Part shown: piece after piece, positions 28,960-42,628 of the stretch | How the letters are laid out: every line of letters starts with the position of its first letter | How positions within the stretch are numbered: position 1 is the stretch's first letter | Sequence record: MZ501103 | Length of the DNA: 64,000 bases | Reading direction: 5' to 3' (one strand) | Origin: Escherichia phage SelmaRatti | The notes under the pieces: generated by a model | What the model saw: only the letters and a program-made list of their open reading frames with translations | What the model was told of the DNA's origin: nothing | Databases searched by the model: none | Position numbers and translations under genes: made by a program

Positions 28960-29729
28960 TTTACATCTATAGTATAACTCAGTTATCTACTGGAAGACAG
29001 TACGTTGGATCGACTAAGGATATTGAGGCTAGAAAGCGTAAACATTTTTACTCACTAAGTAAGGGGAACCACCATAACGCTTTTCTACAGAGAGCTTATG
29101 ATAAAACCGGAAAGCAAGACTTTGTATTTGACATCTTAGATACTACTGAAGAAGTAGATCAGCAGTTCCTACTAGAAGAAGAGTGGGCTAAGGAGCTGGG
29201 AGCAGAGTTCAACATAGGTAGTTACGGTGGTGGGGATAATCTCACAAATAATCCTCGAAGAGAGGAGATTATTAAGAGAATTGGTGAGAGTGTTAGAAAG
29301 CATATAGCGTCCTTATCTGAAGAAGAAAGAAAAGCCCGGTGGAGTAGACCAGGTGAGCTAAACTATAACTGGAAGGGAGGAGTATCTACTCGCTCAAAAA
29401 CATGTATTGATTGTGGTTCCCTACTAGCCCTTAATAACACTAATGGGGAGTACTGTAATAGTTGCAGGGATCGAACAGGTGAGAATAACCCCTTTTATGG
29501 GAAGAAGCATACTGAAGAGGCTCTGAGCAAGATGTCTCAGGCTTCTAAGCAGTACCAAGAAAGTATTAGAGAGGGAAAGACACCCCTTCCTACCCACTTT
29601 AAGGCAGTACGTGTGGATGGTGTGGAATACGTTAGTATGAGTGCAGCAGCTATAGCATTGGGGTGTTCCACAGCGACTATAGGTAATAGAGTTCGTTCAC
29701 CTAAGTTCCCGACGTATGAGTTTGTATAA
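28956..29729 (+). CDS. GIY-YIG homing endonuclease
   Basis: N-terminal IYIYSITQLSTGRQYVGSTKDIEARKRKH; C-terminal zinc-finger-like CIDCGS...CNSCRD. Confidence 0.75.
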   Translation: MIYIYSITQLSTGRQYVGSTKDIEARKRKHFYSLSKGNHHNAFLQRAYDKTGKQDFVFDILDTTEEVDQQFLLEEEWAKELGAEFNIGSYGGGDNLTNNPRREEIIKRIGESVRKHIASLSEEERKARWSRPGELNYNWKGGVSTRSKTCIDCGSLLALNNTNGEYCNSCRDRTGENNPFYGKKHTEEALSKMSQASKQYQESIREGKTPLPTHFKAVRVDGVEYVSMSAAAIALGCSTATIGNRVRSPKFPTYEFV

Positions 29730-29734
29730 TTTAA

Positions 29735-29760
29735 ATAGCCCTTCGGGGCTATTATATTTA
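29735..29760 (+). terminator. hairpin terminator after GIY-YIG gene
   Basis: atagccc-ttcg-gggctat then AT-rich tail. Confidence 0.45.
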
Positions 29761-29831
29761 AATTTCATTTGCTTATTTAGTGAAATTTAAATATAATATA
29801 CTCAATTAATAAACAAAGGATAAATACGAAT

Positions 29832-30341
29832 ATGATTAATCCAAAAGTAGCTAATGCCTATATTAAGTACAAAGAAGGGACAGCTTCAAAAGAGCAGCTA
29901 AAGTTGCTGCTAGATGTAATAGCCCAAACGTTCCATTATATGGAACTACATGCACTAAATAGTGATGAGGACTGCCAGCTAGTCATTCGTTATGATGGAG
30001 TAGGTCAGGAAGAGGAATGGCCGGACTATCTAGCAGAGGAGATAGATAGTATAGAGTGTGATGAATCTTTAACTGCTGAGGAAACAGCACAGAAGGTTCA
30101 AAGAGTACTAGATGAATATTATAAAACCAAACCTAAGAGGGGTGCAACCTGTTCCATAGAAACTCTCACACCTTGTGAAGATGATATTCAAGAGGTAACT
30201 GAGTGGTTCTCAGAGTTTAAAGAATATACCCACTACTTTAGTGAGCCAGCTTTTCTCTCACTATTAGCACTACCTAGAATGTATAAACCAGCAGATAGTG
30301 AACCATCACATTGGCCTGAAGATACCTACGAAGGGGAATAA
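29832..30341 (+). CDS. hypothetical acidic protein (169 aa)
   Basis: ORF with RBS. Confidence 0.45.
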   Translation: MINPKVANAYIKYKEGTASKEQLKLLLDVIAQTFHYMELHALNSDEDCQLVIRYDGVGQEEEWPDYLAEEIDSIECDESLTAEETAQKVQRVLDEYYKTKPKRGATCSIETLTPCEDDIQEVTEWFSEFKEYTHYFSEPAFLSLLALPRMYKPADSEPSHWPEDTYEGE

Positions 30342-30343
30342 TA

Positions 30344-30820
30344 ATGTCGGTTTTCCACGTTTACACAGATGGGGCTTGTAAGGGTAATCCGGGTTTAGGT
30401 GCTTGGGGTTTCGTAGTTTATGATCCTAATGACGAACGTTTAGGTTCTAAGTCGGGTTTCAGCCCAAAAACTACAAATAATGAAATGGAACTCACAGCTA
30501 TTGTTGAAGTTCTGCGCTGGGCCACTAAGAATGATAAACGCCCAGTTATAATTTACACTGACTCTGCATACTGTAAAAATGGTATGGAGAGTTGGGTATT
30601 TGCCTGGCAAAAGAAAGGATGGAAAAAAGCAGATGGTGAGGCCCCTCTTAATCTAGAACTATGGAAAGAGGCATTTTCTTTACTACAGAAATATATAAAC
30701 TTCCATGACACTACGCCTACTTTTATAAAAGTCAAAGGTCACTCAGGGGACCCTAGAAATGATGAAGTAGATGCTCTATGTAACACAGTTATTACTGAGC
30801 AAGAACTTGCTGAGATGTAA
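30344..30820 (+). CDS. ribonuclease H
   Basis: VYTDGACKGNPG start typical of RNase HI; 158 aa. Confidence 0.8.
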   Translation: MSVFHVYTDGACKGNPGLGAWGFVVYDPNDERLGSKSGFSPKTTNNEMELTAIVEVLRWATKNDKRPVIIYTDSAYCKNGMESWVFAWQKKGWKKADGEAPLNLELWKEAFSLLQKYINFHDTTPTFIKVKGHSGDPRNDEVDALCNTVITEQELAEM

Positions 30821-30896
30821 TAAATAAATTAAAAATCTTCTTGCTTAAAGCCCTCTAATTTAGTATAATATTCGTATTGAAAGTGAGGAGGGCTTT

Positions 30897-31175
30897 ATGC
30901 GAATTTATAACTCAAATTCATTAGGATTTAAACCGTTGAGAAAACGTGCACAATCACCTCGTCAAATAAGAAAGGCTAATATTGGTGAGCCAGAAACACG
31001 TCTCCCACCTCCTCCAGAACAACGTTTAGTTTATCTGGATGAAGAATTAGCTGAACGCGAAAGAAAAGCTCAAGAAGAGATTGAGCGTAAGAAAATGTGT
31101 ACTGCTCCAGCGTATAATAAAGGAGCGTATCAATATGTTTCCGATGCAGAACAAGCCAAGATGGTTGGTAGATAA
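30897..31175 (+). CDS. hypothetical protein (92 aa)
   Basis: ORF. Confidence 0.4.
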   Translation: MRIYNSNSLGFKPLRKRAQSPRQIRKANIGEPETRLPPPPEQRLVYLDEELAERERKAQEEIERKKMCTAPAYNKGAYQYVSDAEQAKMVGR

Positions 31176-31191
31176 TTTTTAAAAAATTCAG

Positions 31192-31220
31192 TTGCTAAAC
31201 GCTTCAAATTCTCGTATAGT
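31192..31220 (+). promoter_or_regulatory. sigma70-type early promoter
   Basis: TTGCTA-17-TATAGT then cataaattga. Confidence 0.5.
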
Positions 31221-31258
31221 ATACTTCATAAATTGATAAACAAAAAGGAAAACAAATA

Positions 31259-31774
31259 ATGGCTAAGCAGAAAAACGCAAAAACTCAAGCAGCTACTACA
31301 GTTAAAACTTTCCCGCAGACTGAGGCTAACCGCAAAGCTCGTCTGGAACGCCACCTGCGCAAGCACCCTACTGATGCTCAAGCTGCACAGGCACTGAATC
31401 GTCCGGCTCCTATTCGTCAAAAGCCGAAGGCTAAGAATGCTACTCGTTCTGTAGCCCGCCTTGTGACCTATGTACAGGGTTATGGTCACAAATCTGTTCC
31501 AGTAACACTGAGTTTCAATGCTGGAGCTGAATTGTTCTCTCGTAATGGCATGGCCATGAAAGATTATGAGAAAGCAGTTAACCAGAAGCGTAAACCAACG
31601 GCAGATGTACTGCGTGATGCTCGTGGACAGTTTGGTTCTGTTAAGCCAAATATCTTCGGTGTAGAGTATAGCAAAGATAACGTTCGTGCTCTGTGCTACG
31701 GTGTAGGGATTAAATTCACGGGCGATTCTGCTCGTAAATCTGCTAAACCAGCTCGTAAACGTAAAGCGAAGTAA
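31259..31774 (+). CDS. hypothetical basic protein (171 aa)
   Basis: Strong promoter and RBS, Lys/Arg-rich, followed by hairpin terminator. Confidence 0.5.
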   Translation: MAKQKNAKTQAATTVKTFPQTEANRKARLERHLRKHPTDAQAAQALNRPAPIRQKPKAKNATRSVARLVTYVQGYGHKSVPVTLSFNAGAELFSRNGMAMKDYEKAVNQKRKPTADVLRDARGQFGSVKPNIFGVEYSKDNVRALCYGVGIKFTGDSARKSAKPARKRKAK

Positions 31775-31779
31775 TAGAT

Positions 31780-31806
31780 AAGAGGGGCTTTCGCCCCTCT
31801 TAGTTT
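31780..31806 (+). terminator. rho-independent terminator
   Basis: agaggggc-tttc-gcccctct then tagttt. Confidence 0.55.
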
Positions 31807-31815
31807 GGAGAAACT

Positions 31816-32037
31816 ATGCGTAATTTTGTAGTAAAGAATGATTTTAACCGTGCTAGCACTCATAAGTCTGCTAGAGATTACACACGACTTTCTAGTCATG
31901 AGATAATGGATTTAGCAGTGGATGAGTTAGACTTAGATGACCTCTCTATGGAAGAGAACTGGGATGTCAGTGAAGATATGCTTCCTGGTTTTAAAGACCC
32001 CAAGAAGTGGGAGTCTATTAAAGAGACAACTCTTTAA
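31816..32037 (+). CDS. hypothetical protein (73 aa)
   Basis: ORF. Confidence 0.4.
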   Translation: MRNFVVKNDFNRASTHKSARDYTRLSSHEIMDLAVDELDLDDLSMEENWDVSEDMLPGFKDPKKWESIKETTL

Positions 32038-32065
32038 TAGTTTTCTACACAATAAAGGATAAGTT

Positions 32066-32767
32066 ATGAAAGTAAAACCATTTGGTATGCTAGATATTGA
32101 ATCTCTAGGAACTCCAGGAGATTGTGGTACTACTCATATTGTAATGCCTTCTTTCGCTTTTGTGGCTATGCACGGAATTGATAAAGATCCTGGTCTAGTG
32201 TTTGTTACTTTAGATGTACAAGATCAGCTTAATTCTGGAGCTAAAGTTACGGCATCTACTCTAGCATTCTGGATGGATCAAGCTAAACATAGCCCGTCTG
32301 CTGTCCACATTATGGAAGCTATGAAGGAACGTAATCCAAAACTGATTGCCTTCCAAAATGGTAAACATTATTGCACTAATAAATTAGGCTCAAACTATGC
32401 TGCCTTCTCTATGGCTAAAAACATTATGGAATCGGCTCTAGGAGAGAATGCTCTATACTACGGCAATGGCCCGGAGTTTGATATGACTATCTACTCTGCA
32501 AATACGTTCCACGCGGGAACTCACGAAGAGGTAGTTCCGTGGAAATTCTGGAACTTAGGTAATGTTCGATCTATACGCAATCTTTGGATGCAGGCTGGCT
32601 ATAGTTATAAAGATCTAGAAGCCGAAGGTATTAGCTGGGCAATAGCTAAAATGGAGAAGATGGACACCATTCGTTATGGGATCTATCCGGTTAAGCATGA
32701 TCCAGCATTCGATGCCTTAGTTGAGAGCTATTGTATTGCAGCTATGATCGAAAAAATGAAAATTTGA
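32066..32767 (+). CDS. DEDDh-type 3'-5' exonuclease-like protein
   Basis: N-terminal MLDIESLG (Exo I D-x-E) and C-terminal HDPAFDAL (Exo III H-x4-D). Confidence 0.45.
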   Translation: MKVKPFGMLDIESLGTPGDCGTTHIVMPSFAFVAMHGIDKDPGLVFVTLDVQDQLNSGAKVTASTLAFWMDQAKHSPSAVHIMEAMKERNPKLIAFQNGKHYCTNKLGSNYAAFSMAKNIMESALGENALYYGNGPEFDMTIYSANTFHAGTHEEVVPWKFWNLGNVRSIRNLWMQAGYSYKDLEAEGISWAIAKMEKMDTIRYGIYPVKHDPAFDALVESYCIAAMIEKMKI

Positions 32768-36789: not shown

Positions 36790-36818
36790 AAATTCTGTAT
36801 AATATATTCATAAATTAG
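36790..36818 (+). promoter_or_regulatory. sigma70-type early promoter driving the tRNA/ncRNA region
   Basis: TTGCTA-17-TATAAT then cataaattagag. Confidence 0.55.
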
Positions 36819-37455
36819 AGAGTAATTCTTCTCTAATTTATTAAATAGTGGGGTGTGGAAATCACTTATGTAGTAACACTGCCGTCCTAGTATAATTGGT
36901 ATTATCAAGCCGTAACTGGTGGAAGATGTAGGTTCGAATCCTACGGTCGGTAAGAACTGGATAACTGATGCTTTTAACGTAAAAGCTTCCGAGGTTAGTT
37001 GCGCACTGCCTAAACCACGCGGTAGTTGGTTCCAGACTAACCAACCAGTCTGCTGAATAGTTTTATTACGATTTAACTATGTCCAGGCTAAAGAAGAACT
37101 TTAGAAGGTATTTCTAGGGTAGTGAAGTTCTTTCTCCATATCGGAGTAGTTTTTCAGGCTATCCACAAAGTGGGAAATGCTGACATGAGAGATGTCACTA
37201 ATGGTGCACAATAGCACAGGTAATTCGCGATAACTCCTGTTGAGTAGCAGCAAAAGGCGGGAAGTCATGACCCCAAGCCTAACCGAGTCCTCAATATACC
37301 GCAGGACATAACCACTAAGTCACCCTGACTTAAACTGGAAAATAATAGACGTTACCGTATTTTGTCTTGAAATACTTAATGAGTGAGACTTATGACTCTC
37401 CCGGTATCGTCTGTATTTTTAAGAGTTTTTACGAGAGTTCTTAAAAATACTTAAA

Positions 37456-39608: not shown

Positions 39609-39638
39609 TTGCCTTTTGCTTTAAATTTCTGATATAAT
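39609..39638 (+). promoter_or_regulatory. sigma70-type early promoter
   Basis: TTGCCT-18-TATAAT. Confidence 0.5.
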
Positions 39639-39649
39639 AGTTATATAAA

Positions 39650-40596: not shown

Positions 40597-40680
40597 AGGG
40601 TCGTTAGCCAAGTGGTTTGGCGGCGGATTGTTAATCCGTGTCGAAAGACAACGTAGGTTCGATTCCTGCACCCGCTGCCA
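40597..40680 (+). tRNA. tRNA-like gene, candidate Asn (GTT); acceptor stem imperfect
   Basis: D-arm, anticodon arm gcgga-ttgttaa-tccgt, T-arm and CCA fold well, but acceptor pairs only 4/7 and an extra gtc-gaaa-gac hairpin sits in the variable region. Confidence 0.35.
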
Positions 40681-40865: not shown

Positions 40866-40943
40866 GGGTCGTTAGCTCAATTGGTTAGTAGCACTTGCCT
40901 TTTAAGCAATAGGTTGAAGGTTCGAGTCCTTCACTACCCACCA
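40866..40943 (+). tRNA. tRNA-Lys (anticodon TTT)
   Basis: Acceptor gggtcgt/actaccc (one mismatch), anticodon loop cttttaa, T-arm gaagg-ttcgagt-ccttc, encoded CCA. Confidence 0.6.
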
Positions 40944-40950
40944 AATTTTT

Positions 40951-41024
40951 GCTCGGTTAGTTTAATGGGAGAACCCCGTCTTTACACGGCGGTTGCGATA
41001 GTTCGATTCTATCACCGAGTACCA
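40951..41024 (+). tRNA. tRNA-Val (anticodon TAC)
   Basis: Acceptor gctcggt/accgagt, D-arm gttt/gaac, anticodon arm ccgtc-tttacac-ggcgg, T-arm gatag-ttcgatt-ctatc, encoded CCA. Confidence 0.75.
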
Positions 41025-41043: not shown

Positions 41044-41409
41044 TTGCAAATGCAATTATCAAGCAAGATTCAAGGTTATTTCGGTCATGTGACAATGGAG
41101 TTCGCTATCTCTAAAGGTTGGGATTTCGAGCAAGATCTAGCTGAGTTCTACAAAGATATTGATCTGAACGTACCGTATATGGGACTTTCTACTGGTCAGG
41201 AGATCACAGAAGCCGATGTATTCAAGGCAAGTCAAGGTGAGATAACACCTAGTTTTGCCACTTTTTGGAGTGGCTTCACAATTAAAGAAGAAGCTCCAGA
41301 TGATGATGTATTTATGCAAAGCATGCACTCTGGGAGTTCTGATATGTTATTTGTTAAAGATGTACGACATATCCAAGAAGTGGTAAAAACGTATTTGCAA
41401 AATGCTTAA
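41044..41409 (+). CDS. hypothetical protein (121 aa)
   Basis: ORF with RBS aaggaa. Confidence 0.45.
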   Translation: MQMQLSSKIQGYFGHVTMEFAISKGWDFEQDLAEFYKDIDLNVPYMGLSTGQEITEADVFKASQGEITPSFATFWSGFTIKEEAPDDDVFMQSMHSGSSDMLFVKDVRHIQEVVKTYLQNA

Positions 41410-41423
41410 TTTCTTGTTATAAT
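41395..41423 (+). promoter_or_regulatory. sigma70-type early promoter driving unannotated RNA region
   Basis: TTGCAA-17-TATAAT then tataaattgatg. Confidence 0.5.
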
Positions 41424-41756
41424 ATTTATATAAATTGATGCGAAAATAGCTGCCTAGATACCAGGTGTATGACGTCTACACTAGCAGAGCTACCGAAAAA
41501 GAGATCCTCAGGATAAACGTCGTAGCAAAATTAGTCTGGTATCCATCAATTTAGTTCACTAAGGTATTAGCTCGACCTAGGACTGGCTGCCAAAAAGCAC
41601 GACCCCTACGACTCGGGAGAAGTTCTAGATTAGTCCACTAGATTCAGCGGCAACTGAATAGTGTATCGGGTTTGTGAAGAGCGGCTATCCTCTACTGGCT
41701 AATGTATGAGGTTAGTACGCACACCGAGCTAATAGCCTTAGTAAACTAAAGAATTT

Positions 41757-41831
41757 GGGCGAATAGTGTCAGCGGGAGCACACCAGACTTGCAATCTGGG
41801 AGGGAGGGTTCGAGCCACTCTTTGTCCACCA
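41757..41831 (+). tRNA. tRNA-Ala (anticodon TGC)
   Basis: Acceptor gggcgaa/tttgtcc (G-U pairs incl. G3-U70), anticodon arm ccaga-cttgcaa-tctgg perfect, T-loop ttcgagc, encoded CCA. Confidence 0.6.
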
Positions 41832-41955
41832 AATTAAAAAGAATGCGCGCGATTGACGGAATAGGTATACGTGTAAGCCTTAGAAGTTGAATTTTGAGGG
41901 TTCGAATCCCATCGAGGCGTAACTGCCTGGTGTGATAGAGGCATCATCTTATTAT

Positions 41956-42046
41956 TGGAAGAGCAAATCGAATTGGCGACGAAAACCGCTGGGAAAGTGG
42001 CTGACTGGTAAAACGGCTTGAGAGTTCAAATCTCTCCTCTTCCGCC
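41956..42046 (+). tRNA. type II tRNA-like gene (Leu/Ser class?), anticodon arm not resolved
   Basis: Perfect acceptor ggaagag/ctcttcc, T-arm gagag-ttcaaat-ctctc, CCA, D-loop gaattggcgac; no canonical anticodon stem found by hand. Confidence 0.35.
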
Positions 42047-42154: not shown

Positions 42155-42628
42155 AATCTTGAAGTATGCCGGAATCGGTAGACGGGGCTTCCTAAAGGGC
42201 GTAAGGGGAACATCCACTCCTCATAAGATACCCGAAAACGAGGCTGAGATAAATGGTCTATCTCGTGAAGGTTCAAGTCCTTCTGCTTCTTGATACCTCT
42301 ATGGCTCAAAGTGTAACGGTGCTATTTGATGCTCTTAGTAAGACTTTCCCGACATGCGTTCGGGGGTAAGCTGCTAAGACTAGAGTAGAAGAGTTTCGGA
42401 GAGCCGCCACAATTGAAAATTCGTACTCGTCTTGAGCTGCGTGCAATAGGAGATAACTTGATTAGTATTCTAGAACATGCTAATTGAGGAAGGTTTCTCT
42501 AACCCTGCGAGTTTTCAATTGTGGCTATATCATAATTGGTTAATGATCCTGATTGTGAATCAGGCCTTCCAAGCCTCGCTGAGTAGGGTTCGATTCCCTC
42601 TAGCAGCTCCAACTTTAAGGAAACATTT

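What the first reader, a model, noticed from the sequence alone, without database searches (positions are those of the whole stretch)
41424..41756. Second ORF-free structured segment (about 330 nt) between a promoter and tRNA-Ala
Downstream of promoter 41395-41423 there is no ORF but long-range complementarity, for example gtcgtag at 41519-41525 with ctacgac at 41605-41611. No canonical T-loop is present, so it is unlikely to be a simple tRNA array.
Basis: seen in the sequence. Interest (0 to 1): 0.55.

Follow-up and report, generated by a model that had tools for sequence, protein, structure and literature searches.

The report
T5 RNA2H-type pseudoknotted stable RNA gene
This ORF-free stretch is a real non-coding RNA locus, the counterpart of phage T5's long-annotated but functionless "RNA2H" stable RNA preceded by an enlarged leader hairpin, and comparison with relatives shows it folds into a conserved double-pseudoknot shape that matches no curated RNA family.

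Summary
The window comes from a T5-like phage (Demerecviridae). Segment 41424-41756 is ORF-free, holds no tRNA and matches no Rfam family. It lies between a T5 P13b-type early promoter and tRNA-Ala, the slot where the T5 record annotates "rna2H, stable RNA with unknown functions".

The segment has two parts.
- **Leader hairpin P0 (41431-41553).** Here it is enlarged by a 103-nt insert found in only 84 of about 506 related phage records.
- **RNA2H homologue (41554-41746).** It is closed by a 21-bp stem with a conserved bulged G.

Alignments and a covariance model across four clades (T5/Epseptimavirus, Sugarlandvirus, Pantoea phage AAS21, Pectobacterium phage My1) support a core of five helices plus two pseudoknots. 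On that structure 95% of cells are paired, against 29-40% in slid controls, and 28 of 51 pairs change on both sides.

The T5-annotated ends fall in the closing stem with a 2-bp stagger, as RNase III cuts would. This predicts a 173-nt mature RNA at 41565-41737.

Function is unknown. The RNA is dispensable in the laboratory and lies in the accessory tRNA island. I favour a trans-acting protein-binding RNA, with low confidence.

The parts
41395..41423 (+). Early promoter of T5 P13b type (TTGCAA, 17 nt, TG-n-TATAAT). The transcription start is predicted at A41430.
   Evidence: Consensus scan. It aligns with the T5 region annotated 'promoter P13b' and with the S114 'putative P13b-like' promoter. 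The start site is inferred from the spacing typical of T5 early promoters (my knowledge), not measured.
41431..41553 (+). Leader hairpin P0. The basal stem is 41431-41440 with 41544-41553. The apical 103 nt (41441-41543, 'module A') replace the 12-nt GNRA-capped tip seen in T5.
   Evidence: Alignments A1. MFE fold, z -2.35. Module A occurs in 84 records, all at least 95% identical. One compensatory pair, C41460/G41538 to U/A. My1 has an unrelated 13-bp hairpin at the same position.
41554..41746 (+). RNA2H homologue including the full closing stem P1. P1 is 41554-41574 with 41725-41746, with bulged G41735.
   Evidence: Covariance model R1 scores 212.8 bits on the + strand only. 84.7% identical to T5 rna2H over 204 nt, and 95.6% over its first 113 nt. 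11 of 21 P1 pairs change on both sides across clades.
41565..41737 (+). Predicted mature 173-nt stable RNA (5' UAUUAGCUCG ... CGAGCUAAUAGCC 3').
   Evidence: The ends of T5 misc_RNA rna2H (31808-31979) were transferred through alignment A2. They lie in P1 with a 2-bp stagger and a 3' overhang, as RNase III cuts would. This is an inference.
41580..41585 (+). Pseudoknot PK1, 5' strand (GGACUG). It pairs with the P3 loop at 41631-41636 (UAGUCC).
   Evidence: 6 pairs, 100% paired in 32 sequences, 4 with changes on both sides. Variants seen: GGACU/AGUCC, GAGCC/GGCUC, GAGUC/GACUC, GAACC/GGUUC.
41588..41591 (+). Pseudoknot PK2, 5' strand (UGCC). It pairs with the P4 loop at 41649-41652 (GGCA).
   Evidence: G-C becomes A-U in the Sugarlandvirus clade (ACCA/UGGU). 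My1 has UUGC/GCAA, shifted by one position. This is the weakest element.
41597..41664 (+). Central domain closed by P1b (41597-41600 GCAC with 41661-41664 GUGU). It contains P2 (41602-41619, a hairpin of variable length), P3 (41624-41642) and P4 (41643-41658).
   Evidence: P2: 4 of 5 pairs covary. P3: 2 of 4 pairs covary. P4: the stem sequence is replaced in every clade (UUCAG/CUGAA, AGAGA/UCUCU, ACGC/GCGU, GGG/CCC). P1b is invariant except for G-U to A-U.
41665..41673 (+). Joining strand AUCGGGUUU. Together with the preceding AGUGUA it is the longest conserved unpaired stretch in T5-like and Sugarland phages.
   Evidence: Alignment A2. AGUGUA is kept in all four clades and the rest diverges in AAS21 and My1.
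41674..41724 (+). P5, a long hairpin directly abutting the P1 3' strand. This phage has the 'alpha' form, with the conserved loop UGGCUAAU at 41696-41703. T5 has an unrelated 'beta' form.
   Evidence: The base pair at 41675/41723 takes the forms U-A, C-G and A-U. The alpha and beta forms and the three P2 forms occur in all combinations.
41738..41756 (+). 3' trailer between the predicted RNase III cut and the RNase P site of tRNA-Ala.
   Evidence: Position only. tRNA-Ala is at 41757-41831.

Best explanation
The segment is a non-coding RNA gene that opens an early tRNA transcription unit of a T5-like phage.

Biogenesis, as I read it:
- Transcription starts about 7 nt after the -10 box (about 41430).
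- The transcript runs through a 5' leader hairpin (P0, here enlarged by a 103-nt insert), then the RNA2H-family RNA, then tRNA-Ala.
- The RNA2H part closes on itself with a 21-bp stem. Host RNase III cuts both strands of that stem next to a conserved bulged G, and RNase P frees the tRNA downstream.
- This releases a 173-nt RNA (41565-41737) whose ends are protected by the remaining 10-bp stem.

Fold. A single strand after P1 pairs in turn with the loops of hairpins P3 and P4, giving two pseudoknots around a small three-way junction. Hairpins P2 and P5 are exchangeable decorations.

Status of each step. Shown here: identity with T5 rna2H, non-coding nature, strand, and a fold supported by covariation. 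Inferred: the start site, the RNase III cuts, and accumulation of the RNA in this phage.

Function is not known. My best guess, at roughly 0.3, is a trans-acting accessory RNA that works by binding a host or phage protein, as a decoy or scaffold, during early infection. It would help in some hosts and be dispensable in laboratory strains.
For: Identity and context:
- The window is a T5 relative (96.7% identical to phage TrudiRoth).
- The T5 record annotates misc_RNA rna2H, 'stable RNA with unknown functions', between promoter P13b and tRNA-Ala. The window aligns to it.

Non-coding nature and strand:
- There are no ORFs.
- The model scores 212.8 bits on the + strand and finds nothing on the other strand.
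- There are invariant G-U pairs, for example in PK1 and P1b.

Structure:
- On 41 sequences 95.5% of cells are paired, against 26-43% when partners are slid. 18 pairs change on both sides, a value reached by 0 of 500 shuffles.
- With AAS21 and My1 added, 95.1% are paired against 29-40%, and 28 of 51 pairs change on both sides.
- RNAalifold independently picks the PK1 helix.

Self-contained gene:
- The downstream neighbour varies. It is tRNA-Ala here, an HNH endonuclease in AAS21, an ORF in STyj5-1 and tRNA-Leu in My1.
- No upstream protein partner is conserved.

Processing: the annotated T5 ends map to P1 positions 12 and 183 (T5 numbering). That is a cut after base pair 11 on one strand and after the partner of base pair 10 on the other.

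Accessory role:
- The viable T5 mutant T5-123 lacks 29191-32442, which includes rna2H (PMC11464382).
- Phage FFH1 has lost the core naturally.
- The surrounding tRNA region acts as an anti-defence island in T5-like phages (10.1101/2023.03.15.532788).
Against: - I found no expression or end-mapping data for this phage. I could not read the experimental basis of the T5 annotation, and literature searches for RNA2H found nothing.
- Covariation rests on only four clades, so the number of independent events is modest.
- PK2 is short and needs a register shift in My1.
- RNAalifold also proposes an alternative helix (GCAACUG with CGG..UUUGY) that competes with P4 and PK2.
- Nothing identifies a binding partner, so the decoy idea rests only on context.
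- The leader insert has almost no comparative support for any function.
Confidence: 0.75

Rival explanations
1. It is a cis-acting leader rather than a gene product. On this view the structured 5' region exists to stabilise, fold or correctly process the downstream tRNA precursor, by providing an RNase III entry site and a 5' hairpin against RNase E. The excised piece would be a by-product.
For: It is the first element after a strong promoter, with a tRNA 3-19 nt downstream, in T5, the window, Sugarland and My1. A 5' hairpin P0 is present both in T5-like phages and in My1, with unrelated sequences.
Against: In AAS21, STyj5-1, phA11 and others an ORF, not a tRNA, follows it. A processing site needs only P1. 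It does not need a core with two covarying pseudoknots conserved across subfamilies. T5 annotators list it among the stable RNAs.
Confidence: 0.15
2. It is a tRNA-acceptor mimic. The RNase III cut leaves a 10-bp helix with the 3' tail G-C-C. The host CCA-adding enzyme could complete this to GCCA. P5 sits where a T arm would stack on the acceptor stem. The RNA would then engage, or act as a decoy for, enzymes or toxins that recognise tRNA 3' ends.
For: The bulged G followed by CC at the cut site, and the opposing AGG, are kept in all four clades while the rest of P1 changes. P5 abuts the P1 3' strand with no spacer, as a T arm does. The gene sits in a tRNA cluster whose known role includes countering tRNA-cleaving defences.
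Against: There is no T-loop, D-arm or anticodon-arm signature, and the tRNA and tmRNA models do not match. The first pair would be U-A. The same conservation is explained equally well by RNase III site requirements. The T5 record calls RNA1-3 'tRNA-like' but does not call rna2H that.
Confidence: 0.08
3. It is a ligand-sensing (riboswitch-like) or self-cleaving RNA of an undescribed class.
For: The compact pseudoknotted core has a conserved unpaired stretch (AGUGUA...). An alternative helix competes with P4 and PK2.
Against: There is no expression platform: no terminator and no sequestered ribosome-binding site follows it. The downstream gene varies. No ribozyme or riboswitch model matches, even at E<=10. 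The annotated ends lie in a duplex, which fits a protein nuclease rather than self-cleavage.
Confidence: 0.05
4. It is a DNA-level element, with the inverted repeats serving recombination, replication or homing-endonuclease recognition rather than an RNA.
For: Homing-endonuclease genes are often inserted right next to it. The P2, P5 and P0 variants are shuffled like recombination cassettes. One relative carries an inverted P0 loop.
Against: The G-U pairs and G-U intermediates would be C-A mismatches on the other strand. The model shows strong strand asymmetry. Pseudoknots have no meaning in duplex DNA. T5 reports an RNA product.
Confidence: 0.02

Closest known systems
Phage T5 rna2H ('RNA2H, stable RNA with unknown functions', AY543070 31808-31979)
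   Same: Same genomic slot (P13b promoter, then the RNA, then tRNA-Ala). 95.6% identity over the first 113 nt. Same closing stem, pseudoknot core, P3 and P4.
   Different: The window carries the alternative 'alpha' P5 hairpin in place of T5's 'beta' form. It also has a 103-nt enlargement of the leader hairpin that T5 lacks.
Phage T4 species 1 and species 2 RNAs (rnaC, rnaD)
   Same: These are small stable RNAs of unknown function, encoded inside a phage tRNA cluster and co-transcribed with tRNAs (annotation; established T4 literature, from my knowledge).
   Different: There is no homology. Model R1 finds nothing in the T4 tRNA region. They lie at the 3' end of the cluster, not directly behind a promoter.
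GOLLD and ROOL RNAs (large structured RNAs often found next to tRNAs in phages and prophages)
   Same: Orphan, elaborately structured, tRNA-adjacent RNAs of phages with no known function (my knowledge).
   Different: They are much larger (about 600-800 nt). Their Rfam models do not match the window at any threshold tried.
RNase III-excised stable RNAs (16S/23S rRNA precursors; Bacillus subtilis scRNA precursor, PMC1935012 listed)
   Same: The mature RNA is enclosed by a long stem formed by its flanks and is released by staggered cuts on both strands.
   Different: This is an analogy of biogenesis only. Cleavage here is inferred from the annotated ends and has not been tested.
tmRNA and bacterial Y-RNA-like YrlA (RNAs whose paired 5' and 3' ends mimic a tRNA acceptor arm)
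   Same: The ends pair into a closing helix with a hairpin abutting the 3' strand, and pseudoknots lie inside.
   Different: ARAGORN finds no tmRNA. The only weak YrlA match (18 bits against a 69-bit threshold) lies on real tRNAs at 40888-41002. There is no T-loop.

Membership tests
T5 RNA2H stable-RNA family | Sequence homology to T5 rna2H | tested here: met
   84.7% over 204 nt to NC_005859 rna2H. 95.6% over rna2H positions 1-113. The model built from the family scores 212.8 bits.
T5 RNA2H stable-RNA family | Position: first element after a P13b-type early promoter, upstream of tRNA-Ala or tRNA-Leu in the tRNA region | tested here: met
   The same arrangement is seen in Sugarland and My1.
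T5 RNA2H stable-RNA family | Shared secondary structure (P1 with bulged G, PK1, PK2, P1b, P2-P5) | tested here: met
   95% of cells paired and 28 of 51 pairs with compensatory change.
T5 RNA2H stable-RNA family | Accumulates as a discrete stable RNA with processed ends | not testable with these tools
   Only the T5 annotation is available. No transcript data were at hand.
tRNA / tRNA array | Cloverleaf with T-loop, recognised by ARAGORN or Rfam RF00005 | tested here: not met
   No call inside 41424-41756, not even at E<=10.
tmRNA | tRNA-like domain plus tag reading frame | tested here: not met
   ARAGORN reports none and there is no Rfam match.
Any curated Rfam family (GOLLD, ROOL, 6S, Y RNA-like, riboswitches, ribozymes) | Match to the family covariance model | tested here: not met
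   cmscan of the window at gathering and at E<=10, and of four homologous loci at E<=1. Only tRNAs were found.
T4 rnaC/rnaD | Homology to the T4 species 1/2 RNAs | tested here: not met
   Model R1 with filters off gives only hairpin-level hits of 11 bits or less in T4 68-75 kb.
RNase III substrate | About two turns of double-stranded RNA; cleavage leaving 2-nt 3' overhangs | tested here: inconclusive
   The stem has 21 bp with one bulge and one mismatch. The T5-annotated ends are staggered by 2 bp. Actual cleavage cannot be tested here.

The most novel reading that the evidence does not exclude
The RNA2H family is a new class of phage effector RNA. On this reading, an RNase III-released, double-pseudoknotted RNA has an exposed ...GCC 3' end and a compact core that bind and neutralise a host factor, for example a tRNA-directed immune nuclease or another defence protein. 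Its exchangeable P2 and P5 hairpins and the leader insert would be diversifying in an arms race.
Probability: 0.15. Interest if true: 0.8.

Novelty: new member of a known kind. Interest (0 to 1): 0.45.

Why it matters
T5's stable RNAs appear in its genome record with "unknown functions", and the record gives no structure for them. This analysis turns one of them into a defined family. It now has a fold backed by covariation with two pseudoknots, predicted processing sites, a searchable model, and members across at least three lineages of Demerecviridae. The family matches no Rfam model, and several genome records annotate it as small "hypothetical proteins".

The RNA sits in the accessory tRNA island that T5-like phages use against tRNA-cleaving defences. 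It is dispensable in laboratory hosts. That makes a role in host range or anti-defence directly testable by deletion and complementation. If no such role is found, it remains a well-behaved orphan RNA and a useful correction to annotation.

Tried and rejected
It is at chance level and not conserved.
- **Similarity or complementarity between the leader insert and the RNA2H part** (shared GCUGCC and AUUAGUC words). Local alignment scores are no better than shuffles.
- **Paralogues in the same genome.** Model R1 finds none elsewhere in the 64-kb window or in 15 kb of the T5 tRNA region. The insert has no other copy in the window.
- **Host or plasmid origin.** No blastn match in 5,426 E. coli genomes or in PLSDB plasmids.
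- **Pattern scans of public collections.** IMG/VR returned almost only known isolates. The metagenome scan added a few T5-like and Sugarland-like contigs, plus two hits (L094, L107; 24 bits) that lie inside a 346-aa ORF and lack P3 and P4, so they are spurious. Four matches in bacterial genomes did not match the model.
- **Vibrio phage pVp-1 (Ermolyevavirinae).** No homologue in 34-48 kb. This may reflect limited model sensitivity.
- **T4 rnaC/rnaD.** No relationship.
- **A conserved protein partner.** The upstream 119-aa ORF (phrog_7572, unknown function) is absent from T5 and unrelated to My1_055.
- **Locating more Demerecviridae tRNA regions through the neighbouring SPFH protein.** This failed because the protein is shared with T4-like phages.
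- **Literature.** Searches for RNA2H and T5 stable RNAs found nothing usable.

Full report
**What the window is.** The segment and its flanks match T5-like phages of the family Demerecviridae. The best match is Escherichia phage TrudiRoth at 96.7% over 481 nt, and 536 phage records hold a match. The region is the T5-type tRNA cluster. ARAGORN and Rfam find tRNA-Lys and tRNA-Val just upstream (40866-41024) and tRNA-Ala(UGC) at 41757-41831.

**Checking the observation.**
- No ORF of 30 aa or more overlaps 41410-41788 on either strand.
- A promoter with a TG-extended TATAAT lies at 41395-41423.
- Nothing in Rfam 15 matches 41424-41756, even at E<=10.
- The segment folds better than shuffles on the + strand (z -2.84).
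- It holds 14 perfect 7-mer complements against 3.8 expected.

It is the kind of match expected about four times by chance. It joins two variable parts and is lost in relatives. The significant helices are P0, an inner stem of the insert, and P1.

**What is already known.** The T5 record AY543070 annotates, between promoter P13b and tRNA-Ala, a misc_RNA "rna2H / RNA2H, stable RNA with unknown functions" at 31808-31979, 172 nt long. The window aligns to this slot. Other T5 stable RNAs also have counterparts in the window. I could not find or read a paper that describes RNA2H.

**Anatomy: two modules.** Alignment with relatives splits the segment.

*The leader hairpin P0.* In T5 this is a 27-nt hairpin, and most relatives have an 8-bp stem capped by GAAA. 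In the window its tip is replaced by 103 nt (41441-41543).
- This insert occurs in only 84 records, all at least 95% identical, against 506 records that hold the downstream RNA.
- It has one compensatory pair and a modest folding signal (z -2.35).
- Pectobacterium phage My1 has an unrelated 13-bp hairpin in the same place. A 5' hairpin is therefore a conserved feature, but this particular insert is not.

*The RNA2H homologue, 41554-41746.* Numbering 41554 as position 1, the elements are:
- P1: 1-11 with 183-193 and 12-21 with 172-181, with bulged G182.
- A single strand whose positions 27-32 pair with the P3 loop (78-83, PK1) and whose positions 35-38 pair with the P4 loop (96-99, PK2).
- An A-rich linker.
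- P1b: 44-47 with 108-111.
- Hairpins P2, P3 and P4.
- The conserved strand AGUGUAUCGGGUUUG.
- A long hairpin P5 (121-171) that abuts the P1 3' strand.

One search gives the window coordinates of each element.

**Comparative support.**
- On 41 distinct sequences from T5-like and Sugarland-like phages (alignment A2), the proposed structure has 95.5% of cells paired against 26-43% when partners are slid by 1-3 columns. 18 pairs change on both sides, a value reached by 0 of 500 shuffles.
- RNAalifold, which cannot draw pseudoknots, chose the PK1 helix by itself.
- A covariance model built from A2 (R1) found homologues that blastn had missed. One is in Pantoea phage AAS21, identical in Erwinia phage KEY (94.8 bits). 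The other is in Pectobacterium phage My1 of the subfamily Mccorquodalevirinae (53.4 bits).
- With these added (A4), 28 of 51 pairs change on both sides and 95.1% of cells are paired, against 29-40% in slid controls.

PK1 is the clearest case. It reads GGACU/AGUCC in T5-like phages, GAGCC/GGCUC in Sugarland, GAGUC/GACUC in KpGranit with a G-U intermediate in another contig, and GAACC/GGUUC in AAS21. It is 100% paired. The P4 stem sequence is replaced in every clade.

Some caveats apply.
- Only four clades contribute, so independent events are fewer than cell counts suggest.
- The A4 alignment is fitted to the model.
- PK2 is short and shifts register in My1.
- An alternative helix competing with P4 and PK2 is also compatible with the data.

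G-U pairs and the one-strand model score show that the + strand is the folded one.

**Mosaicism and loss.**
- P2 occurs in at least three forms and P5 in two unrelated forms. The alpha form, with loop UGGCUAAU, is in the window and in Sugarland. The beta form is in T5.
- These forms and the long or short P0 occur in all combinations on an otherwise nearly identical core.
- Homing-endonuclease genes are often inserted just downstream: an HNH gene in AAS21 and a T5orf172-domain gene after the tRNA-Leu that follows the RNA in My1. This offers a plausible route for such cassette exchange.
- Phage FFH1 has deleted the core.
- The viable T5 mutant T5-123 lacks 29191-32442, which includes rna2H in either T5 coordinate system (PMC11464382).

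**Biogenesis (inferred).** The annotated T5 ends map to P1 position 12 and to the nucleotide paired with position 10. One strand is cut after base pair 11 and the other two base pairs further on, next to the bulged G. This is the geometry of RNase III cleavage. It leaves a 10-bp terminal stem with a 3' tail G-C-C. The motif AGG / bulged G / CC at this site is kept in all four clades while the rest of P1 covaries. Transferred to the window, the mature RNA is 41565-41737. RNase P at 41757 would remove the 19-nt trailer with the tRNA.

**Function.**
- No protein partner is conserved next to the RNA.
- The downstream gene varies, which argues for a self-contained, trans-acting product rather than a cis-regulator.
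- No host, plasmid or T4 counterpart exists.
- The RNA lies in the accessory tRNA region that T5-like phages use against tRNA-cleaving defences, and it is dispensable in the laboratory.

I therefore favour an accessory protein-binding RNA, a decoy or scaffold, with low confidence. The rivals are a cis-acting processing leader, a tRNA-acceptor mimic completed by CCA addition, a ligand-sensing or catalytic RNA, and a DNA-level element. They are weighed in the rival-explanations section.

**Verdict.** It is not new in existence, because it is the counterpart of T5 rna2H. The fold, the family model, the wider distribution and the recognition of the variable leader insert come from this analysis. 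Function remains open and testable.

Noticed in passing
window 36817-37455, 42158-42295, 42303-42409, 42414-42519: Counterparts of four other T5 'stable RNAs with unknown functions' are present. RNAX lies upstream of tRNA-Arg. RNA1, RNAI and RNAIII lie between tRNA-Ser(UGA) and tRNA-His. T5 RNAIV, RNA2 and RNA3 have no blastn match in the window.
   Followed up: partly
window 41854-41912 and 41991-42044: Two sub-threshold tRNA-model matches (22.1 and 24.7 bits against a 29-bit threshold) lie between tRNA-Ala and tRNA-Ser, where T5 has tRNA-Leu and tRNA-Ser(GGA). They may be degenerate or unusual tRNA genes. ARAGORN does not call them.
   Followed up: no
window 40598-40674 and 36881-36952: Rfam finds tRNAs here (41.1 and 35.5 bits) that ARAGORN misses. 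The second lies inside the RNAX-homologous region.
   Followed up: no
L007 649-837 (Sugarland CPT_Sugarland_107, opposite strand); L114 5505-5627 (AAS21 gp103): Small 'hypothetical protein' genes annotated in public records overlap the RNA2H homologue. Given the compensatory substitution pattern they are probably spurious gene calls.
   Followed up: partly
L114 5630-6010; L126 28723-29262; L002 about 1362-1600: Mobile or extra genes are inserted downstream of the RNA2H gene in relatives. AAS21 has an HNH endonuclease between the RNA and tRNA-Ala. My1 has a T5orf172-domain protein after the tRNA-Leu that follows the RNA. phA11 has a small ORF between the RNA and tRNA-Ala.
   Followed up: partly
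L008 661-726 (phage FFH1): A natural deletion joins the P1 5' strand directly to the distal part of P5, removing the pseudoknot core.
   Followed up: yes
L095 / L100 (metagenome contigs), leader hairpin: The P0 tetraloop region reads GGATTTCTCC instead of GGAGAAATCC. This is an inversion of the hairpin tip.
   Followed up: no
window 34149, 39646, 45228, 55617: The 10-mer TAAATTGATG or its complement, which starts the transcript here, recurs at four other places. The one at 39646 lies directly after another promoter-like site at 39609-39638. This suggests a shared initial transcribed sequence among this phage's early promoters.
   Followed up: no
public records OR848495 (Listeria phage LM 4-14-1), MG065692 and MG065642 (Campylobacter phages C13, A148): Records named for unrelated hosts carry T5-like sequence nearly identical to this region. 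They are probably contaminated or mislabelled.
   Followed up: no
window 41757-41831: This particular tRNA-Ala sequence occurs in only 49 phage records, although the RNA upstream occurs in about 500. Relatives carry different tRNA genes or ORFs in the same position, so the junction is a recombination hot spot.
   Followed up: partly
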